Shown: positions 27,285-36,296 of the stretch, piece by piece | Position numbering within the stretch: the first letter of the stretch is position 1 | Layout: each line of letters opens with the position of its first letter | Source of the DNA: Deltaproteobacteria bacterium | Lineage (GTDB): Bacteria; Desulfobacterota; Binatia; DP-6 | Length of the DNA stretch: 64,000 nucleotides | Assembly: GCA_005879795.1 (NCBI GenBank) | Contig: VBKJ01000129.1 | Span: forward strand, 1,931-65,930 | Direction of reading: 5' to 3' | The notes under the pieces: model-generated | The model's input: the letters and a program-made list of their open reading frames with translations, nothing else | Told to the model about the DNA's origin: nothing | Databases searched by the model: none | Translations under genes and position numbers: made by a program

Positions 27285-27400
27285 TTGCCTTATCCAGAGT
27301 GGCTGAGGGCCCGGCCCGGCGACGCCACAGCAACCGGTCCTGAAACGGACGCTGGTGCTAATTCCGACGCTGCCCGCGCGGGCGGCGAAAGATAAGGTTC
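27285..27400 (+). ncRNA. SAM-I (S-box) riboswitch aptamer
   Basis: P1 CUUAUC...GAUAAG; conserved GAGGGcccGGCCCggcGAcGCCacaGCAACC, GGUGCUAAUUCC and GAAAGAUAAGG blocks in canonical order. Confidence 0.9.
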
Positions 27401-27450: not shown

Positions 27451-28167
27451 ATGTCGACGACGAGCGAAGAAAGGATTTCCCGCGGGCGCGTCCTCGTGAT
27501 CGGCGTCGGCGGCCTCGGTGCGCCCGCCGCGACGGCGCTCGCCGCCGCGGGCGTGGGGACGGTCGGGCTCATCGATCCCGACACGGTCGAGGTCTCGAAC
27601 CTCCACCGCCAGCCGCTCTACACGAGCGCGGACGTCGGCCGGGCGAAGGTCGAGGTCGCGGCCGAGCGGCTCGGCGCGCTCGCGCCGGCGCTCCGCGTCG
27701 AGACGTGGCGCGCGCGCTTCGGCCCGGCGGACGCCCATCTGCTGCGCGGCTTCGACGTCGTCCTCGACGGCACGGACACCATCGCCGCCAAGTTCGTCGT
27801 GAACGACGCCGCGGTGGCGGCGGGCGTGCCGCTCGTCCACGCGGGCGTGCTCGGCTTCCGCGCGCAGCTCCTGACCGTGCTGCCGGGACGAAGCGCGTGC
27901 TACCGCTGCGTCTTCGAGGAGGCGCCGCCGGCGGGCGATGTGCCGTCCTGCCAGGAGGCCGGCGTGCTCGGGCCGGTCGCCGCGCTCGCGGGCGCGCTCG
28001 AGGCGGCCGAGGCGATCCGCCTCCTCGCCGGCGAGCCCCCCGCCTGGGCGAACGCGCTCCTCGCCATCGACACGCAGGCGGGGAGCTGGCGCACCGTGCC
28101 GGTCGCTCCGAGTCCGCGCTGCCCGGCGTGCGTGCCCCGCGCCGCCGAAAGGAGTCACGCCCCATGA
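27451..28167 (+). CDS. E1-like adenylyltransferase (MoeB/ThiF family), N-terminally short
   Basis: VLVIGVGGLGAPAATALAAAGVG nucleotide loop; CYRC...CPAC zinc motif; lacks the usual N-terminal RYSRQ helix. Confidence 0.8.
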   Translation: MSTTSEERISRGRVLVIGVGGLGAPAATALAAAGVGTVGLIDPDTVEVSNLHRQPLYTSADVGRAKVEVAAERLGALAPALRVETWRARFGPADAHLLRGFDVVLDGTDTIAAKFVVNDAAVAAGVPLVHAGVLGFRAQLLTVLPGRSACYRCVFEEAPPAGDVPSCQEAGVLGPVAALAGALEAAEAIRLLAGEPPAWANALLAIDTQAGSWRTVPVAPSPRCPACVPRAAERSHAP

Positions 28168-29417
28168 GCTACGTGAAGGGTCTCCGCTGCCGCGAGTGCG
28201 GCGCCGAGACGCCGATCGCGCCGTTGCACGTGTGCGAGACGTGCTTCGGCCCGTTCGAGGTCCAGTACGACTACGCCGCCATCCGCCGCGCGCTGACCCG
28301 CGAGAAGATCGCCGCCCGCCCGCGCAACCTCTGGCGCTACCGCGAGCTCCTGCCGATCGAGGGCGAGCCGCGCGTCGGGCTCCACTCGGGCATGACGCCG
28401 CTGGTGCGCGCGGACCGGCTGGCCGCCGTGCTCGGCGTGAAGGAGCTCTGGGTCAAGGACGACTCGGTCAACCACCCGACCTTCTCCTACAAGGACCGAG
28501 TCGTCTCGGTCGCGATCTCGAAGGCGATCGAGTTCGGCTTCGAGACCGTGTCGTGCGCCTCGACCGGCAACCTCGCCAACTCCGTCTCGGCGCACGCGGC
28601 GCGCGCCGCCCTCGCCTGCTACATCTTCATCCCCGACGACCTCGAGCAGGGCAAGGTGATCGGGTCCACCATCTACGGCCCGCGCACCATCGCCGTGCGC
28701 GGCACCTACGACGACGTGAACCGGCTGTGCAGCGAGGTGGCGGACAAGTACGGCTGGGCCTTCGTCAACATCAACGTGCGTCCGTACTACACGGAGGGCG
28801 CCAAGACCTACGGCTTCGAGATCGCGGAGCAGCTCGGCTGGCGGCTCCCGAGGCACATCGTGGTCCCGACCGCGGGCGGCACGATCCTGCCCAAGGTCGC
28901 CAAGGCGTTCCGCGAGCTGCGCGACCTCGGCCTGGTCGAGGGCGATTTCAAGATCTACACGGCGCAGGCGGCGGGCTGCGCCCCCGTCGTGCACGCGCTC
29001 CACAAGGGCGCGGAGCTCATCGCCCCCGTGAAGCCGCAGACGATCGCCAAGTCCATCGCCATCGGCAACCCGGCCGACGGCTTCTACGTGCTCAAGGCCG
29101 TGCGCGAGTCGGGCGGCTGGGGCGAAGCGGTGACCGACGAGGAGATCGTGGCCGGCATCCGGCTCCTCGCCCGCACCGAGGGGATCTTCACCGAGCCCGC
29201 GGGCGGCACGACGGTCGCGGTCACCAAGAAGCTGATCGAACAGGGGAGGATCCCCCGTGATGAGTCGATCGTCGTGAGCATCACGGGCAACGGCTACAAG
29301 ACGCTCGAGGCGGTGCTCGACACGGTCGAGCAGCCGTTCCGCATCCCGGCCCGCCTCGCCGACTTCGACGAGCTGCACGCTCGCCTGAACGCCGCCCGCG
29401 CGGCGAGCGCCGTCTGA
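28164..29417 (+). CDS. threonine-synthase-like PLP enzyme (MetM-like candidate homocysteine synthase) with N-terminal zinc ribbon
   Basis: N-terminal CRECG...CETC; PLP lysine in FSYKDR; GGAG RBS; ATG overlaps the upstream stop (ATGA). Confidence 0.85.
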   Translation: MSYVKGLRCRECGAETPIAPLHVCETCFGPFEVQYDYAAIRRALTREKIAARPRNLWRYRELLPIEGEPRVGLHSGMTPLVRADRLAAVLGVKELWVKDDSVNHPTFSYKDRVVSVAISKAIEFGFETVSCASTGNLANSVSAHAARAALACYIFIPDDLEQGKVIGSTIYGPRTIAVRGTYDDVNRLCSEVADKYGWAFVNINVRPYYTEGAKTYGFEIAEQLGWRLPRHIVVPTAGGTILPKVAKAFRELRDLGLVEGDFKIYTAQAAGCAPVVHALHKGAELIAPVKPQTIAKSIAIGNPADGFYVLKAVRESGGWGEAVTDEEIVAGIRLLARTEGIFTEPAGGTTVAVTKKLIEQGRIPRDESIVVSITGNGYKTLEAVLDTVEQPFRIPARLADFDELHARLNAARAASAV

Positions 29418-29445: not shown

Positions 29446-29721
29446 ATGGTCCAGGTCAAGGTACCAACGCCGCTCCGCAAGTACACGGGGGGCGCCGGGG
29501 GGATCGAGGCGCAGGGGGCGACGGTGGCCGCGCTCGTGGACGATCTCGAGCGGCGCTACCCGGGGCTGAAGGAGCGCATCTGTGACGAGTCGGGACAGGT
29601 GCGGCGCTTCGTGAACATCTTCGTCAACGGCGAGGACATCCGCTTCCTCGCGCACCTCGACACGCCCCTCAAGGCGGGGGACGAGCTGTCGATCGTCCCG
29701 GCGATCGCCGGAGGCCGCTAG
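29446..29721 (+). CDS. MoaD/ThiS/CysO-like sulfur-carrier protein ending in Gly-Gly-Arg
   Basis: 91 aa with a beta-grasp pattern; C-terminus ...SIVPAIAGGR. Confidence 0.7.
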   Translation: MVQVKVPTPLRKYTGGAGGIEAQGATVAALVDDLERRYPGLKERICDESGQVRRFVNIFVNGEDIRFLAHLDTPLKAGDELSIVPAIAGGR

Positions 29722-29734
29722 CCGCGGCCCTCCT

Positions 29735-30721
29735 GTGCTCTCCGCGCGCGCCGTCCTTGCCCGTCCGACCTCGCCCGCCGCGGGGCCGCTCGCCGTGCCC
29801 TCCGCGCTCCAGCTGGTCGGCAACACGCCGCTGGTCGAGATCCGGCGCGCGCGGGACGGCGTGGCGCCGGGGGTGCGCATCCTCGGCAAGCTCGAGGGCT
29901 TCAACCCCGGCGGCTCGGTGAAGGACCGCCCCGCCCTCAAGATGATCGAGGACGGGCTCGCGCGCGGGCGGCTCGTGCCCGGGAAGACGATCCTCGACTC
30001 CACCTCGGGCAACACCGGCATCGCGCTCGCCATGGTGGGCGCCGCGCTCGGCTACCCGGTCGAGCTGGTGATGCCGGGCAACGTGAGCAAGGAGCGCAAG
30101 CAGGTGGTGGCCGCCTTCGGCGCCAAGGCGATCTTCTCGGACCCGCTCGAGGGCTCCGACGGGGCGATCCGCCTCTGCCGTCAGATACTGGCCGAGAACC
30201 CCGACCGCTACTTCAAGCCCGACCAGTACAACAACGAGGCGAACTCGCTCGCCCACTACGAGACCACGGGCCCCGAGATCTGGCGCCAGACCGCCGGCGC
30301 CATCACGCACTTCGTCGCCACCATCGGCACCGGCGGGACGATCATGGGGACGGGGCGCCATTTGAAGGAGCAGAACCGGAGCGTCCAGGTGATCGCCGCC
30401 GAGCCCGCCGACGCCTTCCACGGCATCGAGGGGCTCAAACACATGGCGTCCTCGATCGTACCCGGCATCTATCACGAGGAGGCGCTCGACCGGAAGCTCG
30501 GGATCGACACCGAGGACGCCTACAACATGGTCTACCGCCTCGGCCGCGAGGAGGGCCTGCTGCTCGGGCAGTCGAGCGGCGCGGCGCACGTGGCAGCGCT
30601 CGAGGTGGCGCGCGCACTCCGCGAGGGGACGGTGGTCGTCCTCTACCCCGACTTCGGCGACCGCTACCTCTCGACCAACCTGTGGGTCGGCTGGCAGAAG
30701 CTGGGAGGGACGACGCCATGA
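29735..30721 (+). CDS. cysM: cysteine synthase B-like PLP enzyme (CysM/CysK family)
   Basis: PLP lysine in GGSVKDR; GTGGT loop; full-length match. Confidence 0.85.
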   Translation: MLSARAVLARPTSPAAGPLAVPSALQLVGNTPLVEIRRARDGVAPGVRILGKLEGFNPGGSVKDRPALKMIEDGLARGRLVPGKTILDSTSGNTGIALAMVGAALGYPVELVMPGNVSKERKQVVAAFGAKAIFSDPLEGSDGAIRLCRQILAENPDRYFKPDQYNNEANSLAHYETTGPEIWRQTAGAITHFVATIGTGGTIMGTGRHLKEQNRSVQVIAAEPADAFHGIEGLKHMASSIVPGIYHEEALDRKLGIDTEDAYNMVYRLGREEGLLLGQSSGAAHVAALEVARALREGTVVVLYPDFGDRYLSTNLWVGWQKLGGTTP

Positions 30722-31002
30722 AGCGGCCGCCGCCACGCCTCGCCAAGGCGGAGCCCGCGCCGGTCGCGCGCGGGAAGTTCTACCTCACCTACCCGAAGAA
30801 GCTCGTGAAGGAGCCGCTCATCTACCAGATGAGCCGGAAGTTCGACCTGGTGTTCAACGTGCGCAGCGCGAGCGTCAGCGAGGAGATCGGCATCATCGCC
30901 CTCGAGCTCGACGGCCGGCAGGGGGAGATCGACGCCGCCGTCGAGTGGTTCCGCGCCCAGGGCGTCACCGTCGAGCCGATCGAGAAGAACGTCATCGAGT
31001 GA
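30718..31002 (+). CDS. stand-alone NIL-domain protein (MetN C-terminal-like ferredoxin fold)
   Basis: 94 aa; ...LIYQMSRKFDLVFNVRSASVSEEIGIIALELDG... is the pattern of the NIL domain; ATG overlaps the cysM stop. Confidence 0.55.
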   Translation: MKRPPPRLAKAEPAPVARGKFYLTYPKKLVKEPLIYQMSRKFDLVFNVRSASVSEEIGIIALELDGRQGEIDAAVEWFRAQGVTVEPIEKNVIE

Positions 31003-31004
31003 TG

Positions 31005-31628
31005 CTGACCGAGGCGCAGATCGAGCGCTACAGCCGCCAGATCGTGCTGCCCGAGGTGGGCGGGGGCGGGCAGGAGCGGCTGCTCGCGGCGCGCGTCGTG
31101 CTGGCCGGTGACGGGCCGGCGGCGGAGGCGGCCGCCACCTTCCTCGGCCGCGCGGGTGTGGGCGCGCTGCACCTCCAGGCGAGCGCCGGCGCGCTGTCCG
31201 AGCTGTCGCCCGACTGCCAGGTGAGCCGCCACGCGGGCCTCGAGGAAGCGCCTGCGGCCGGCGTCGTCGTCGACCTGACGCCAGACACCGCGTTGAGCGC
31301 CGTGCTCGCCCGCCGGGCACAGGCGGGGCGGCCGTGCGTGCTCGGCGCCCTCAGCGGAGCGATGATCTTCGTCTTGACGCTGGTCGGGCGGCCGTGCGTC
31401 GCCTGCCTCGGCTCGGAGCGCCTGGAAACGCGCCGCGCCGCCCGCGGGCCGCTCGCCGCGCCGGCGCTGCTCGGGCTCGGTGCGCTGGCGGCGAACGAGG
31501 CGCTTCGCGTCCTGCTCCTGCCTCCGGCCCGCGGCCGCCTGGTCAGCCTCGGGCTCGAGAGCGCCATCGTGAGCGCGGTCGAGGTGAGGTCCACCGCCGG
31601 CTGCGCCTTCTGCGGCGGCCGCCCGTGA
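31005..31628 (+). CDS. E1-like paralog with RYSRQI N-terminus but a degenerate nucleotide-binding loop
   Basis: MLTEAQIERYSRQIVLP...; Gly-rich loop replaced by VVLAGDGPAAEAA; CVAC...CAFC zinc motif retained. Confidence 0.6.
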   Translation: MTEAQIERYSRQIVLPEVGGGGQERLLAARVVLAGDGPAAEAAATFLGRAGVGALHLQASAGALSELSPDCQVSRHAGLEEAPAAGVVVDLTPDTALSAVLARRAQAGRPCVLGALSGAMIFVLTLVGRPCVACLGSERLETRRAARGPLAAPALLGLGALAANEALRVLLLPPARGRLVSLGLESAIVSAVEVRSTAGCAFCGGRP

Positions 31629-32806
31629 CCCACCCCGCGCACTGGAAGCCCGAGCTCGCCGCGCGCGGGGTGCGCCTCGACGCGAGCGCGGCGCGCCTGG
31701 GCGCCGGTGACACGGCGCGCCCCCTCGAGCTCGCCCTGCTCGACGACGTCCGCGTCGGCGTCCCGATCGACGAGCGCTCCCCATTCGTCCTCTTCGCCGA
31801 CAGCGCCCGGCACTTCCTCGTGCGCCGCGATCCGGGCGGGGCCGAGAGCGCGCGCGTCGAGGTGCGGCCCATCCCGCGGCCCGGCTTCTACGAGCGCCGC
31901 ACGAGCCGCGGCACGCCCATGGCGCGGATCGCCACCGTGCGCGGCAGCCACCTGCTCGTGAACCCGAGCAGCGCGTGCGGCTTCAGCGTGCGCGGCACGC
32001 CGTGCCGCTTCTGTGTCGAGGGTGCGCGCGTCTCCGCCGAGCGCGACGCGGTCCCGGTGGCCGACGTCCTCGAGGTCGTGCGCGCCGCGTTCGACGAGGG
32101 CGCGTGCGAGCTGGTGTACTTCAACACCAGCCACTTCGAGAGCGAGGACGGCGGCATCGCCTTCCTCGCCCCCTACATCGAGGCGGTGCGCCGGCACTTC
32201 GACACGCTGATCGCGACCCAGGTCCATCCGCCCCGCGCGACCCACTGGATCGACGAGACCTACGCCATGGGGGTCGACGCGCTCAGCTACAACCTCGAGA
32301 TCTTCGACCCCGACGTGTTGAACCGCCACTGCATCGGGCGCGCACGCTACATCGGGCGCGAGCGCTACCTCGAGTCCCTGGCGCACGCCGCCAGGGTGTT
32401 CCCGAGCGGCACGGTGTGGAGCGACCTGGTGCTCGGCCTCGAGCCCGCGGACTCGACGATCGCCGGCATCGACGCGCTGGTCGAGATGGGGGTGGTGCCG
32501 GTGGCCGCCCTCCTGCGGGGCGAGCACCCGCTGCCCGCGCCGGCCGACGTGGCGCCCCTGCTCGCGCACCTCTACCGCGCCGTCAAGCGCCGCGGCATCA
32601 ACATGGGCTGGGTGCGCGACCTGGCGCTCGGCATCACGCCCCTCGAGGCGCGTCACTTCGCCGGCGACGGCGCCCGCCTCGCGGTGACCGTCCAGCAGCT
32701 CACCCGCTCGCGCCTGGGCGCGCTCGCGGCGCGCGGCCTCGCCCGCTTCCGCCGCCGCCTGCGCGTGCGCAAGGTGAGCGAGTCGTTCGACGCCGCGCAC
32801 CTGTAG
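31625..32806 (+). CDS. putative Fe-S (radical-SAM-like?) TIM-barrel enzyme with an atypical Cx8Cx2C motif
   Basis: SSACGFSVRGTPCRFCVEG near the N-terminus of a ~390-aa alpha/beta protein; GTG overlaps the upstream stop; family not recognised. Confidence 0.45.
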   Translation: MTHPAHWKPELAARGVRLDASAARLGAGDTARPLELALLDDVRVGVPIDERSPFVLFADSARHFLVRRDPGGAESARVEVRPIPRPGFYERRTSRGTPMARIATVRGSHLLVNPSSACGFSVRGTPCRFCVEGARVSAERDAVPVADVLEVVRAAFDEGACELVYFNTSHFESEDGGIAFLAPYIEAVRRHFDTLIATQVHPPRATHWIDETYAMGVDALSYNLEIFDPDVLNRHCIGRARYIGRERYLESLAHAARVFPSGTVWSDLVLGLEPADSTIAGIDALVEMGVVPVAALLRGEHPLPAPADVAPLLAHLYRAVKRRGINMGWVRDLALGITPLEARHFAGDGARLAVTVQQLTRSRLGALAARGLARFRRRLRVRKVSESFDAAHL

Positions 32807-34281
32807 TGGCTCGCCCGCAAGAGCGGCAGCACGCGCCGGCCGACGTCGTCATCGACACCCGGCCGCTGTGGCGCATCCTCGCCGAGCGCACCTACCGGCC
32901 GGTCGTGCTGGCGATGGGGCTCCTCGGCTTCCTCGCGCTACGCGCCATGGCGCCGCCCGCCGGTCTCTCGGCCGCCGGGCAGAGCGCGCTCGCCATCTTC
33001 GCCCTCTGCCTCGTCTACTGGGTGACGAACGTCATCCCGCTCATGGTGACGAGCCTGCTCGCCATGGTGCTCCTGCCGACCACGGGTGCGCTGCCCGCCC
33101 GGGACACCTACGCGCTCTTCGGCAACGAGGCGGTCTTCTTCATCCTGGGCGCCTTCATCCTCGCCGCCTCGCTCATGAAGTGCGGGCTCTCGACCCGGAT
33201 CGCGATCGCCGTGCTGCGCCGCTTCGGCCACACGCCGCGCGCGCTCCTCCTCTCGCTCTTCCTGATGAACGCCTTCATGGCGTTCTTCATGTCGGAGCAC
33301 GCGGTCGCCGCCATGACCTTCCCGATCACGGTCGAGATCGCGCGCGTGCTCCGCCTGCCGCGCCAGCAGAGCAACTACGGGCGCGCCCTCTTCCTCGCCA
33401 TGGCGTGGGGCACGCAGATCGGCGGCATCGCGACCCTCCTCGGCGGCGGACGGGCGCCGCTCGCGCTCGGCATGCTGCGCGACTTCAACGGCCAGACCTA
33501 CAGCTTCGCCCAGTGGACGCTCGCCGCCTGGCCGCTGGTGGCGGTGCTGCTGGCGGTGGGCTGGCAGGTGATCGTGCGCTTCTTCCCGATCGACATCACC
33601 TCCGTGCGCGACGCCGACGTCGTCATCGCGGAGAAGGCGCTCCGCCTGGGACGGCCCTCGGGCAAGGAGAAGTCGATCGCCCTGGTGATGCTCGGCACCC
33701 TCGCCGCCTGGATCGTCGGGGGCGAGGAGTTCGGGCTCGCCACCATCGCGCTCGGCGCGGTGGTGCTCCTCTTCGTCCTGGACCTCCTCAGCTGGCGCGA
33801 CATCGAGCAGTACGTGAACTGGGGCGTGCTCCTCATGTACGGCGGCGCGATCGCGCTCGGCTCGGCCCTCAACCGCTCGGGGGCCTCGACCTTCATCGCG
33901 AGCGTCACCGTGAGCCGCTGGGCGCACAGCCCGCTGGCCGTCGTCGCCATGATCTCCGCCCTGGGCATCCTGCTGACCGAAGCGATGAGCCACTCGGCGG
34001 TGGTCGCGCTGCTCATGCCGGTGGCCCTCGGCATCGCGGCGCAGTTCGGGATCGATCCGCGCGTCATGGCGCCGGCGGTGGCGCTGCCCGCGGGGCTCGC
34101 CTTCACGCTGCCCGTCGGCACGCCCGGGAACGCGATCGCGTACTCGTCGGGCTATCTCCGCCTGCGCGACATGCTCGTGCCGGGCTCGGTCATGGTGGTG
34201 ATCGCGTGGGCAGCGTTCAACCTGGTGGCGCGGTACTACTGGCCGCTGATCGGGCTCACGCTCGCCGCGCCGCGGCCGTGA
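32806..34281 (+). CDS. DASS/SLC13-family anion:Na+ symporter (sulfate/thiosulfate/dicarboxylate-type)
   Basis: Polytopic protein with duplicated halves and conserved SNT-like motifs (TNVIPLMVTS, TLPVGTPGNAIAY); start uncertain (GTG 32806 or ATG ~32913). Confidence 0.75.
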   Translation: MARPQERQHAPADVVIDTRPLWRILAERTYRPVVLAMGLLGFLALRAMAPPAGLSAAGQSALAIFALCLVYWVTNVIPLMVTSLLAMVLLPTTGALPARDTYALFGNEAVFFILGAFILAASLMKCGLSTRIAIAVLRRFGHTPRALLLSLFLMNAFMAFFMSEHAVAAMTFPITVEIARVLRLPRQQSNYGRALFLAMAWGTQIGGIATLLGGGRAPLALGMLRDFNGQTYSFAQWTLAAWPLVAVLLAVGWQVIVRFFPIDITSVRDADVVIAEKALRLGRPSGKEKSIALVMLGTLAAWIVGGEEFGLATIALGAVVLLFVLDLLSWRDIEQYVNWGVLLMYGGAIALGSALNRSGASTFIASVTVSRWAHSPLAVVAMISALGILLTEAMSHSAVVALLMPVALGIAAQFGIDPRVMAPAVALPAGLAFTLPVGTPGNAIAYSSGYLRLRDMLVPGSVMVVIAWAAFNLVARYYWPLIGLTLAAPRP

Positions 34282-34367: not shown

Positions 34368-34604
34368 ATGAGCACGAGAGCGAAGCTGTTCTGGAACGGA
34401 CGCAGCCAGGCGGTCAGGCTGCCGAAGGAGTTCCGCTTCAGCGGCGACGAGGTCCTCATCCGCCGGGCGAACGACAAGGTGATCCTCGAGCCCGTTCACA
34501 AGGGCTGGGACGATACCTTCTGGGCCTGCTTCGGTAAGCTCTCGGACGACGTCGAGCGGACCGAGTTCGTGGCGAGCGAGCGCCGCGAGGATGCCTTCCC
34601 CTGA
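34368..34604 (+). CDS. vapB: VapB antitoxin (AbrB/SpoVT-MazE fold)
   Basis: 78 aa with a swapped-hairpin N-terminus (AKLFWNGRSQAVRLPKEFRF); overlaps vapC. Confidence 0.8.
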   Translation: MSTRAKLFWNGRSQAVRLPKEFRFSGDEVLIRRANDKVILEPVHKGWDDTFWACFGKLSDDVERTEFVASERREDAFP

Positions 34605-35002
34605 GGTACCTGCTCGACACCAACATCTGCATCTACGCCCTGAAGCGCCGGCCGCCCGAGGTTCTGAGTCGGCTCGAGCGCCTCACGCCCGCCGACGTCG
34701 CCGTGAGCGCCGTGACCGCGGCCGAGCTCAGGTTCGGGGCGAGCAAGAGCTCCGCTCCGGAGCGGAATCATCGCGTGCTCGACGTCTTCCTCGGGCACAT
34801 CAACGTGCTCGCCTTCGACGTCGATGCCGCGACGAGCTATGGACGGGTGCGCGCCCATCTCGAGCGACGGGGGCGTCCGATCGGCGCGATGGACACGCTG
34901 ATCGCCGCCCACGCGCTCTCCCTCGGGGCGACGCTCGTCTCGAACAACGTCCGTGAGTTCAAACGGGTCCCGAGATTGCGGTGCGAGAACTGGGTCAGTT
35001 AG
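34601..35002 (+). CDS. vapC: VapC PIN-domain toxin (apparent CTG start)
   Basis: [13 protein letters not shown]...TAAEL...[13 protein letters not shown] are the PIN acidic residues; no in-frame ATG/GTG/TTG upstream of the catalytic Asp; CTG at 34601 overlaps the vapB TGA. Confidence 0.7.
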
Positions 35003-35036
35003 CCCGAACGGCCCGACATCCGAGAAAGGATCCTCG

Positions 35037-36296
35037 ATGCCCGATCTGATCCCTCCCCACGGCGGCCTGACCGAGCCCGTCTCCCTGACCGTCCCCGCGC
35101 ACGAGGTGGAGCGGTTCCGGGCGGAGGCGGCGCGCCTCGCCAGGGTGCCGGTCTCCGACTCCGACCTCTCGAGCGTCTATCGCTTCGGCGACGGCGGGCT
35201 CTCCCCGCTCACCGGCCCGATGGACGCGGCCACCTACCAGCGCGTCCTCGACGAGTGCGTGATCGAGCGCGGCGGCCGGCTCTACGCCTGGACGATCCCG
35301 ATCGCGCTGCCCGTGACGGCGGAGCTGGCGCGGAAGCTCGGGCGCGGAGAGACCGTCGCGCTGACCAACAGCGCCGGCGCCGTGGTCGCGACCCTCGCCA
35401 TCAGCGACGTCTACCCGTGGGACAAGGCGAAGTACCTGCGCAGCGTCTACGGCACCGAGCGCACCGACCATCCCGGCGCCGACATGGTGCTCAAGGGCGA
35501 CGCCGACAGGACGCACCTCCTCGGCGGCCGGCTGCGCGTGCTCCCGCAGCCGACGCACCCCGCGTTCGGGAGGTACGTGCTCACGCCGCGCGAGGTGCGC
35601 CGCCTGCTCGCCGCCAGGGGCTGGGACCGCGTGGTCGCCTTCCAGACCCGCAATCCGCTCCACCGCGCGCACGAGTATGCGCTCGTCTACGGGCTCGAGA
35701 CCCTGCTCCGGGCCGGGCACGACGCGGGCGCGGCTCTCAACCCCCTCATCGGCGAGACCAAGGGCGACGACGTGCACGCCGACGTGCGCATGCGGACCTA
35801 CGAGGCGCTCATCGAGACGCGCGCCCTCGGCGAGGGCGACAGCGATCCCACGCTCTGGGGGCCGCGCGGCGAGTCGGTGCCCGACCGGGTCATCCTCCTC
35901 GGCCTCGACATCAAGATGTTCTACGCCGGCCCGAAGGAGGCGGTGATGCACGGCATATACCGGCAGAACTTCGGCTTCACCGACCTGGTCGTCGGCCGCA
36001 AGCACGCGGATGCGCCCTTCCACGACGGCACGCCCATCTGGGGCGACTTCGACGCGCAGGAGGTCTTCGGCTCGCTCCGGGGCGACCTCGGGATCAAGCC
36101 CGTCAAGGTCGGCTTCGCCGCCTACTACGAGTCGGTCGGGCGCGTCGACCTGATGGACAACCATCCCGGCGAGAAGCCGCTCACCATCTCCGGCAAGGAC
36201 GTGCGCAGGGCGCTCCTCGAGGGCCGCGAGGTGGACCCGCGCATCATGCGGCCGAGCACGGCGCGGATCCTCGCGGCGGCGATGACCGGGGGCTGA
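35037..36296 (+). CDS. sat: sulfate adenylyltransferase (ATP sulfurylase)
   Basis: [11 protein letters not shown] and GRKHAD motifs; full-length match. Confidence 0.9.

What the first reader, a model, noticed from the sequence alone, without database searches (positions are those of the whole stretch)
31625..32806. TIM-barrel-like enzyme with an atypical Cx8Cx2C tri-cysteine motif in the sulfur-carrier operon
The ~390-aa protein carries SSACGFSVRGTPCRFC near its N-terminus. This is not the canonical radical-SAM Cx3Cx2C and not a variant spacing I recognise (ThiC Cx2Cx4C, HmdB Cx5Cx2C, QueE Cx14Cx2C). It is translationally coupled to E1b. It could be an Fe-S sulfur-mobilising or reducing enzyme that supplies the sulfur which rhodanese/MoeZ domains supply in other carrier systems; no rhodanese is present here.
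Basis: partly seen in the sequence, partly recalled or inferred. Interest (0 to 1): 0.6.

Follow-up and report, generated by a model that had tools for sequence, protein, structure and literature searches.

The report
Variant radical-SAM enzyme in sulfate-assimilation operon
The gene encodes a genuine but uncharacterised radical-SAM iron-sulfur enzyme with a stretched cysteine motif, and across many uncultured bacteria it sits between a ThiF-type activating enzyme and a sulfate-type transporter in operons that make cysteine and homocysteine through a protein thiocarboxylate, so this pathway probably has a step nobody has described.

Summary
Window 31625-32806(+) encodes a 393-aa protein with C118-x8-C127-x2-C130. 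Its GTG start overlaps the stop of the upstream ThiF-like gene.

All three cysteines are kept in 78-79 of 79 orthologues at 36-80% identity. So is a fourth cysteine, C236, in an arginine-rich stretch. There is no auxiliary-cluster motif.

In 82 loci, all from MAGs, a DASS transporter follows the gene in 77. A ThiF-like gene lies upstream in most loci complete on that side. It is intact where it is the only copy and decayed in the window's clade, which has a second intact copy. Fusions exist with a JAB protease and with the transporter. A sister clade also carries CysH and a sulfite reductase, so the enzyme does not simply replace them.

Best reading, by inference: a SAM-radical enzyme docked on the E1/carrier complex that serves sulfur loading. 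The reaction is unknown.

The parts
31625..32806 (+). Variant radical-SAM protein, 393 aa: an N-terminal beta-rich domain (about residues 1-100), a (beta/alpha)6 radical-SAM core (about 103-325) and C-terminal helices
31976..32014 (+). Codons for C118-x8-C127-x2-C130, the predicted ligands of the SAM-binding [4Fe-4S] cluster. An aromatic residue (F129) precedes the last Cys, as in canonical radical-SAM enzymes.
   Evidence: The Cys residues are present in 78-79 of 79 orthologues. Position 129 is Y, F or W in 74 of 79.
32330..32332 (+). Codon for C236, a fourth conserved cysteine inside the motif C-x-G-R...G-R-x-R-Y. It is a candidate catalytic or sulfur-carrying residue in an anion-binding pocket.
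   Evidence: C236 is present in 77 of 79, R239 in 70, R245 in 73 and R247 in 76.
32750..32767 (+). Codons for the C-terminal basic motif R376-R-R-L-R-V381 (LRR[RK]LRV). It is kept in almost every orthologue from the loci, and a related form immediately precedes the transporter in the rSAM::DASS fusions.
31002..31628 (+). Short ThiF-like protein (E1b, 208 aa), a degenerate E1. Only the N-terminal 49 positions of the Pfam ThiF model match, and the Gly-rich loop reads LAGDGPAA. Its stop overlaps the rSAM start.
32806..34281 (+). DASS (Na_sulph_symp) anion transporter, the presumed sulfate importer. It directly follows the rSAM gene.
   Evidence: It is adjacent in 77 of 82 loci. It is fused to the rSAM domain in P0202 and P0243.
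27454..28167 (+). Intact ThiF/MoeB-type E1 (E1a) without a rhodanese domain. The start may instead be at 27355.
28158..29417 (+). Threonine-synthase homologue, a candidate MetM-type thiocarboxylate-dependent homocysteine synthase
   Evidence: The MetM/MetO pathway is as summarised in the bioRxiv preprint 10.1101/2024.10.14.618325.
29446..29721 (+). ThiS/MoaD/SAMP1-like sulfur carrier ending ...AIAGG-R
29735..30721 (+). CysM-type cysteine synthase
30718..31002 (+). Stand-alone NIL domain protein (94 aa)
35034..36296 (+). Sulfate adenylyltransferase (Sat; PUA_2 plus ATP-sulfurylase domains)

Best explanation
The gene encodes an authentic radical-SAM enzyme of the catalogued but uncharacterised 'variant rSAM' family (NCBIfam NF045502, in the BioB/ThiH/LipA-like part of the superfamily). 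The first cluster cysteine is displaced by a five-residue insertion, giving Cx8Cx2C instead of Cx3Cx2C. C118, C127 and C130 are predicted to hold a site-differentiated [4Fe-4S] cluster that binds SAM through LipA-like DGG, YNLE and GLE motifs. There is no auxiliary cluster. Instead there is one further conserved cysteine (C236) in an arginine-rich, anion-friendly stretch. The enzyme is a fixed component of a module ordered [ThiF-type E1 or TusA] - rSAM - DASS transporter - (Usp). This module lies inside operons that take sulfate to a ThiS-like protein thiocarboxylate and on to cysteine (CysM) and homocysteine (a MetM-like ThrC homologue). Most likely mechanism, by inference: it docks on the E1/carrier complex, through the decayed E1b copy in this organism, and close to the sulfate importer. 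It uses its cluster, SAM and C236 to deliver or process the sulfur loaded onto the adenylated carrier C-terminus, which is the job a rhodanese domain does in MoeZ-type E1s. Shown here: family membership, fold, cysteine conservation, gene order and fusions. Inferred: cluster and SAM binding, the physical complex, and the sulfur-loading role. The chemical reaction is unknown. I put identity as a radical-SAM enzyme at about 0.9 and the sulfur-loading role at about 0.35.

For: Conservation. The three Cys, an aromatic residue before the last Cys, D175-G-G177, Y222-N-x-E225, C236, R239/R245/R247 and G271-x-E273 are conserved in 79 orthologues.

Context. A DASS gene is downstream in 77 of 82 loci, and a ThiF-like gene lies upstream in most loci that are complete on that side. 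In the 36-43% identity clade that upstream E1 is the only E1 and has an intact GAGGLG loop. In the window's clade a second intact E1a exists and the rSAM-adjacent copy is shortened with an eroded loop but is still retained, and its stop overlaps or abuts the rSAM start in most of these loci. That pattern argues for a structural E1-rSAM partnership.

Fusions and distant members. A JAB::rSAM fusion lies next to E1 and ThiS genes. rSAM::DASS fusions exist. In more distant members a TusA sulfur-relay protein replaces the E1 immediately upstream.
Against: No step of the known CysO/MetO pathway chemically requires a radical: sulfide can attack the acyl-adenylate directly. No relative of the family has been characterised, so the chemistry cannot be transferred by homology. 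The tightest linkage of all is to the transporter, which a pure carrier-loading role does not explain. C236 is missing in the 35%-identity member P0150. Pfam Radical_SAM is below its gathering score (25.5 against 29.5). Every locus is from an uncultured MAG, so there are no genetic or expression data.
Confidence: 0.45

Rival explanations
1. It is a reductase for a sulfur oxyanion. The low-potential cluster, with C236 and the arginine pocket, would reduce APS, sulfite, thiosulfate or a carrier-bound thiosulfonate. In the window's clade it would stand in for the CysH and/or sulfite reductase that are missing from the operon.
For: In 35 loci of the window's clade (at least 45% identity) the operon keeps DASS and often Sat, but CysH, sulfite reductase and JAB are essentially never found within 10 kb. 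None is found in the 64-kb window. The enzyme is glued to the anion importer and often next to the sulfate-activating enzyme, Sat or CysDN. It has a conserved Cys in an Arg-rich motif.
Against: In the sister clade the same gene co-occurs in one operon with CysH (28 of 47 loci), a NIR_SIR-type sulfite reductase (15 of 47) and often CysC. In L089 it co-occurs with AprAB. No radical-SAM-fold enzyme is known to reduce sulfur oxyanions. Sulfite reduction normally needs siroheme. The missing genes may simply lie elsewhere in the Binatia genomes, which could not be checked here.
Confidence: 0.15
2. It is a regulatory subunit rather than a catalyst. A SAM- and/or Fe-S-sensing domain would throttle the DASS sulfate importer and the E1 according to the end product (SAM) or the redox or iron-sulfur status. 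This would be analogous to trans-inhibition of the MetNI importer by its NIL domain.
For: Its strongest and most ancient linkage is to the transporter: adjacency in 77 of 82 loci and two fusions. The conserved basic C-terminal helix abuts the first membrane segment in the fusions. Other putative sensor proteins, NIL and Usp, sit in the same operons.
Against: No radical-SAM domain is known to act as a sensor. A full set of LipA-like catalytic-core motifs plus an extra conserved Cys and Arg pocket is retained over deep divergence, which is typical of enzymes. The E1 adjacency and the JAB fusion are not explained.
Confidence: 0.12
3. It is a LipA/BioB-style sulfur-insertion or other radical enzyme acting on a different substrate: a small molecule, or a post-translational modification of a pathway protein such as the carrier, E1, CysM or transporter. 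It would use carrier thiocarboxylate or TusA persulfide as the sulfur donor instead of an auxiliary cluster.
For: The closest structural and sequence relatives are lipoyl synthases (LipA, LipS2), BioB and ThiH. Sulfur-donor proteins (ThiS/E1, TusA) are encoded next to it. The absence of an auxiliary cluster would call for an external sulfur donor.
Against: No candidate substrate gene (an acyl carrier, lipoyl domain, precursor peptide or similar) is conserved with it across clades. The conserved neighbours all belong to primary sulfate assimilation.
Confidence: 0.15
4. It is a non-SAM Fe-S sulfurtransferase. The free iron of the three-Cys [4Fe-4S] cluster would bind hydrosulfide and pass it to the carrier acyl-adenylate, the reverse of what the TtuA cluster does with TtuB-COSH, without any radical chemistry.
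For: It has a three-Cys site-differentiated cluster, E1 adjacency and no rhodanese. The altered cluster loop might change what binds the unique iron.
Against: The aromatic residue before the last Cys and the LipA-like DGG, YNxE and GxE motifs that contact SAM in canonical enzymes are conserved. This is hard to explain if SAM is not bound.
Confidence: 0.08

Closest known systems
NCBIfam NF045502 'variant_rSAM' and the RadicalSAM.org CX8CX2C clusters (Megaclusters 4-6-1, -3, -5, -6)
   Same: The protein passes the NF045502 cut-off, and all 34 diverse relatives scanned match the model at E <= 0.001. It has the same non-canonical spacing. Megacluster-4 is the BioB/ThiH-like subgroup, which is consistent with the weak ThiH, LipA and BioB hits here.
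   Different: Those resources only catalogue the family and give it no function or context. I could not confirm directly that this protein lies in Megacluster-4-6.
Lipoyl synthase LipA / LipS2 (and biotin synthase BioB)
   Different: There is no auxiliary-cluster ligand set, meaning no N-terminal CX4CX5C and no C-terminal RSSY. The cluster loop is Cx8Cx2C. The protein has its own N-terminal beta domain and a basic C-terminal helix. There is no lipoyl or biotin substrate gene in the window.
TIGR04043, the MSMEG_0568 family of radical-SAM proteins
   Same: This is the nearest named sister family. The alignment runs over residues 10-295, so the N-terminal domain and the variant loop are shared.
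   Different: The score of 97.6 is far below the cut-off of 303.7. The genes that surround the window gene and its orthologues belong to sulfate assimilation and the sulfur carrier. The MSMEG_0568 family is itself uncharacterised.
CysO-CysM-Mec-MoeZ (Mycobacterium) and MetO-MetM-Mec-MoeZ (Streptomyces) thiocarboxylate pathways
   Same: The operon holds a ThiS-like carrier, a ThiF-type E1, CysM and a ThrC-like MetM candidate. The sister clade adds the JAB/Mec protease.
   Different: The E1 lacks the rhodanese domain. The operon additionally has this radical-SAM enzyme, a second decayed E1, a NIL protein, a DASS transporter and Sat. None of these is part of the described pathways.
Other radical-SAM enzymes with stretched cluster motifs (HmdB CX5CX2C, some QueE CX14CX2C, Elp3/YhcC-like CX7/CX11CX2C)
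   Same: The principle is the same: an insertion between the first two cluster cysteines while the Cx2C end and the barrel are kept (the enzyme examples are from general knowledge).
   Different: They belong to different subfamilies and have different substrates. There is no evidence of shared function.
TtuA/TtuB, [4Fe-4S]-dependent sulfur transfer with a ubiquitin-like thiocarboxylate
   Same: It is a conceptual analogue: a three-Cys cluster working with a Ubl sulfur carrier (from general knowledge).
   Different: The fold is unrelated (PP-loop ATPase) and the direction of sulfur flow is opposite. This is a resemblance of idea only and was not tested.

Membership tests
Radical SAM superfamily | Three cysteines in CX3CX2C that bind the SAM-binding [4Fe-4S] cluster | tested here: not met
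   The spacing is CX8CX2C. The Cx2C end and the aromatic residue before the last Cys are kept. Such variants are accepted members according to PMC9477430.
Radical SAM superfamily | Partial (beta/alpha)6 TIM-barrel core | tested here: met
Radical SAM superfamily | SAM-contacting motifs (GGE-type after beta2, ribose motif on beta4, GxIxGxxE on beta5) | tested here: inconclusive
The motifs are conserved in 79 orthologues. No ligand-bound model was available.
Radical SAM superfamily | Pfam PF04055 gathering score | tested here: not met
   25.5 bits against a cut-off of 29.5. Many orthologues carry a precomputed PF04055 hit.
Radical SAM superfamily | Reductive cleavage of SAM to the 5'-deoxyadenosyl radical | not testable with these tools
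   This needs anaerobic biochemistry.
NCBIfam NF045502 variant_rSAM | HMM score at or above the curated cut-off | tested here: met
   152.5 bits against 125. All 34 relatives in A2 match at E <= 0.001.
TIGR04043 MSMEG_0568 family | HMM score at or above the curated cut-off of 303.7 | tested here: not met
   97.6 bits.
Lipoyl synthase (LipA/LipS2) | Auxiliary [4Fe-4S] ligands (N-terminal CX4CX5C plus a C-terminal serine motif) | tested here: not met
   Only four cysteine columns are conserved (118, 127, 130, 236) in 79 orthologues. LipS2 and lipA HMM hits are weak (best E 2.3e-08 and 5.7e-06) and appear in a minority of members.
APS/PAPS reductase (CysH) or sulfite reductase (NIR_SIR) | PAPS_reduct or NIR_SIR domain | tested here: not met
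   There is no such Pfam or NCBIfam hit. True CysH and NIR_SIR genes co-occur with this gene in the sister clade.
Rhodanese / MoeZ-type sulfurtransferase | Rhodanese domain with an active-site Cys loop | tested here: not met
   None of the nine operon proteins has a rhodanese hit.

The most novel reading that the evidence does not exclude
A LipA-like radical-SAM enzyme is an obligatory and so far unrecognised component of protein-thiocarboxylate-dependent sulfate assimilation. It would form a membrane-proximal complex with the DASS sulfate importer and a ThiF-type E1, or a pseudo-E1 kept only as its scaffold. It would carry out a new reaction: either radical or Fe-S-mediated loading of sulfur onto the Ubl carrier, or reduction of an activated sulfur oxyanion in lineages such as Binatia whose operons lack CysH and sulfite reductase.
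Probability: 0.3. Interest if true: 0.8.

Novelty: new variant of a known kind. Interest (0 to 1): 0.55.

Why it matters
How the sulfur atom reaches ThiS/CysO/MetO-type carriers when the E1 has no rhodanese domain is unresolved, particularly in bacteria that assimilate sulfate de novo. In that situation a cysteine-derived persulfide would be circular. Here a radical-SAM enzyme is locked between the E1 and the sulfate importer across several phyla of uncultured bacteria. Its E1 neighbour is preserved even after losing its nucleotide loop. This gives a concrete, testable candidate for that step. It would also assign a first function to a catalogued but uncharacterised radical-SAM family. If instead it reduces a sulfur oxyanion, that would be new chemistry for the superfamily.

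Tried and rejected
1. A sequence search of the PDB with the single protein gave no hit. The profile search gave only a marginal ThiH hit at E 0.037.

2. A locus scan with the broad 34-sequence alignment failed because no stretch was conserved enough. It succeeded with a narrower 14-sequence alignment.

3. The afdb50 fold library was unavailable.

4. Nine full-text literature searches were run, on CX8CX2C, MSMEG_0568, NF045502/TIGR04043, radical SAM with thiocarboxylate/CysO, MetM/MetO, Binatota, TusA/DASS, and ThiF with assimilatory sulfate reduction. They found no description of this enzyme or operon type. Only the RadicalSAM.org listing of the spacing and the MetM/MetO pathway summary were relevant.

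5. The idea that the rSAM replaces CysH or Sir was downgraded after CysH, Sir, CysC and AprAB were found beside it in sister clades.

6. A search for CysH, Sir, JAB, CysC and Usp in the 64-kb window by tblastn and by custom HMMs found none. Whether they exist elsewhere in the genome could not be checked.

7. A chance motif or a non-coding ORF was rejected on conservation and GC3.

8. Members at 33% identity or less (L090, L091) have unrelated contexts, such as UbiA, so the sulfur context cannot be extended to the whole NF045502 family.
Full report
**Observation.** The ORF at window 31625-32806(+) translates to 393 aa and contains SSAC118-GFSVRGTP-C127-RF-C130, which is exactly Cx8Cx2C. Its GTG start overlaps the TGA of the upstream ThiF-like ORF (GTGA at 31625-31628). 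Its TAG stop overlaps a possible GTG start of the downstream transporter at 32806. Third-position GC is 0.98, and the protein has hundreds of homologues (480 hits at E <= 0.001; 1145 cluster representatives). So the gene is real.

**Is the motif more than chance?** Yes.
- 115 of the 120 closest homologues (57-99% identity) have Cx8Cx2C.
- In 79 orthologues recovered from genome loci at 36-80% identity, C118, C127 and C130 are present in 78, 79 and 79 sequences.
- Representatives down to about 28% identity mostly keep Cx8-14Cx2C, with 8 the commonest spacing.

**What the protein is.**
- NCBIfam NF045502 'variant_rSAM' is matched above its curated cut-off (152.5 against 125). TIGR04043 (MSMEG_0568 family) is matched far below its cut-off (97.6 against 303.7). 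Pfam Radical_SAM is just below its gathering score (25.5 against 29.5).
- All 34 members of a diverse alignment match NF045502 at E <= 0.001. Eleven also hit LipS2 weakly and two hit lipA.
- The RadicalSAM.org paper (PMC9477430) already lists CX8CX2C for Megaclusters 4-6-1, -3, -5 and -6, inside the 'biotin and thiazole synthase' Megacluster-4. The spacing is therefore catalogued and not new.
- An AlphaFold2 model (pLDDT 83, pTM 0.83) shows an N-terminal beta-rich domain, six beta-alpha units and C-terminal helices.
- A profile of the family finds ThiH marginally in the PDB (E 0.037).
- These positions are conserved in the 79 orthologues: an aromatic residue before the last Cys, D175-G-G177, Y222-N-x-E225 and G271-x-E273. 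So are P202-P203, D218 and S277-T278.
- Only one further cysteine is conserved. C236 (77 of 79) sits in the motif C-x-G-R...G-R-x-R-Y. No auxiliary-cluster motif exists.
- A basic C-terminal motif LRR(R/K)LRV is kept in almost every orthologue.

**Context in the window.** The genes are tightly packed or overlapping, in this order:
- intact ThiF/MoeB-type E1a without a rhodanese domain
- ThrC homologue
- ThiS/SAMP1-like carrier ending AIAGG-R
- CysM
- NIL domain protein
- short ThiF-like E1b
- the radical-SAM gene
- DASS transporter
- a MazE/PIN toxin-antitoxin pair
- Sat

ThrC-like plus carrier corresponds to the MetM/MetO homocysteine route, as summarised in the bioRxiv preprint 10.1101/2024.10.14.618325. 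CysM plus carrier corresponds to the mycobacterial CysO route (general knowledge). The wider synteny (QueT-ECF transporter, BamD, ECF sigma factor, PolA) matches Candidatus Binatia MAGs, so the window is most likely from that lineage.

**Context elsewhere.** I analysed 82 loci, all from MAGs: Binatia, 'Deltaproteobacteria', Myxococcota, Thermodesulfobacteriota and Nitrospirota.
- A DASS gene follows the rSAM gene in 77 loci. A ThiF-like gene lies upstream in most loci that are complete on that side.
- Other neighbours are CysM (62 loci), Usp (52), ThiS (49), Sat (45), the ThrC-like gene (38) and NIL (38).
- Two clades emerge.
  - The window's clade (at least 45% identity, 35 loci) has E1a...E1b-rSAM-DASS-(Usp)-Sat. 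CysH, sulfite reductase and JAB are essentially absent within 10 kb, and none is in the 64-kb window.
  - The sister clade (36-43% identity, 47 loci) has ThrC-like - NIR_SIR/Fer4 sulfite reductase - ThiS - NIL - CysM - JAB - E1 - rSAM - DASS - Usp - CysH - (CysC) - Sat.
- In the sister clade the E1 next to the rSAM is the only E1 and carries an intact GAGGLG loop. In the window's clade the adjacent copy is shortened (118-250 aa in most loci), its Gly loop is eroded and it sometimes lacks both CxxC pairs. It is nevertheless always retained, and its stop overlaps or abuts the rSAM start in most of these loci.
- Fusions exist. Prok-JAB::rSAM lies next to E1 and ThiS genes. rSAM::DASS lies next to a TusA protein and CysD/CysN.
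- One 35%-identity member lies in ThrC-like - ThiS - NIL - ThiF - CysM - JAB - DsrEFH - TusA - GcvH-like - LipS-type rSAM - LplA - rSAM - TusA - [this family] - DASS - Usp - AprA - AprB - Sat.
- Members at 33% identity or less have unrelated neighbours.

**Interpretation.** Identity as a radical-SAM-fold Fe-S enzyme is well supported. It is not a simple replacement for APS reductase or sulfite reductase, because it co-occurs with them in one operon in the sister clade and with AprAB in L089.

Three facts point to a physical partnership with the E1/carrier machinery at the sulfur-loading step. The immediately upstream gene always encodes a protein that handles activated sulfur, either an E1 or TusA. 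A catalytically decayed E1 copy is retained beside it. A fusion to the carrier-specific JAB protease exists. The adjacency and fusion to the DASS importer suggest the complex sits at the site of sulfate entry.

I therefore favour a role in delivering or processing the sulfur that is loaded on the adenylated carrier, using the cluster, SAM and C236 (about 0.35). Four rivals remain open:
- a sulfur-oxyanion reductase, which is attractive for Binatia whose operons lack CysH and Sir (0.15)
- a SAM/Fe-S sensor that regulates the importer (0.12)
- a LipA-style sulfur insertion into another substrate (0.15)
- a non-SAM cluster-mediated sulfur relay (0.08)

None can be settled without biochemistry or genome-wide profiling.

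**Novelty.** The motif and the family are already catalogued (NF045502, RadicalSAM.org). No function is known, and nine full-text searches found no description of this enzyme or of its operon association. I rate it a new variant of a known kind: a CysO/MetO-type thiocarboxylate pathway extended by a radical-SAM enzyme, a pseudo-E1 and a dedicated importer.

Noticed in passing
window 31002-31628 (+), with L006-L085: The ThiF-like gene next to the rSAM is a decaying paralogue in the window's clade. Its Gly-rich loop reads LAGDGPAA, only the first 49 Pfam ThiF positions match, and some orthologues are 118-170 aa with no CxxC pairs. In the sister clade the same position holds the only, intact E1 (GAGGLG loop, two CxxC). 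It looks like a pseudo-enzyme kept as a scaffold, reminiscent of the inactive subunit of eukaryotic heterodimeric E1s.
   Followed up: partly
window 34368-34604 and 34703-35002 (+): A MazE/AbrB-type antitoxin and a PIN-domain toxin (VapBC-like pair) sit between the DASS transporter and Sat. Many relatives have a Usp gene there or nothing. This is probably a lineage-specific insertion into the operon.
   Followed up: partly
window 29446-29721 (+): The ThiS-like carrier passes the NCBIfam SAMP1 (ubiquitin-like small modifier) cut-off and ends in GG plus one extra residue (R). Orthologues carry 0-2 (occasionally up to 4) extra residues after GG. Trimming and adduct hydrolysis would need a JAB/Mec protease, yet none is found in this 64-kb window or near any locus of this clade.
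   Followed up: partly
window 32804-32808: The rSAM stop TAG overlaps a GTG (TAGTG) that is in frame with the DASS transporter ORF. The transporter may therefore also be translationally coupled to the rSAM gene.
   Followed up: no
L089 1-15361: One 35%-identity relative lies in a 15-kb cluster that combines the thiocarboxylate Cys/Hcy genes with two DsrE/DsrH sets, two TusA genes, a GcvH-like lipoate-binding protein, LplA, two LipS-type radical-SAM genes, AprAB and Sat. This is an unusual mix of sHdr-type sulfur-relay maturation genes and assimilation genes.
   Followed up: no
P0186 (561 aa) and P0191 (579 aa): A Cx10Cx2C subfamily at 28-29% identity carries an extra domain of roughly 150-190 aa with no Pfam hit. 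A shared stretch (…RCR.++..…FFYK.S…SRDR(Y/F)SYGA…) appears at the C-terminus in one protein and at the N-terminus in the other, a domain swap around the same rSAM core.
   Followed up: no
elsewhere in the window (no coordinates: the family list is not mapped to individual ORFs): A Pfam scan of the other window ORFs found tetrapyrrole-synthesis domains: GlutR_N, Porphobil_deam, HEM4, TP_methylase and ALAD. If the TP_methylase protein is a uroporphyrinogen-III methyltransferase, it would catalyse the first step towards siroheme, so the organism may still make the sulfite-reductase cofactor even though no sulfite reductase is in the window.
   Followed up: no
window 30718-31002 (+): A stand-alone 94-aa NIL domain without the ferredoxin half is conserved in 38 of 82 loci. 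NIL-ferredoxin proteins are required for homocysteine synthesis in methanogens and Desulfovibrio (PMC5764234). Its role here, whether methionine sensing or a partner of the Fe-S enzyme, is unexplained.
   Followed up: no
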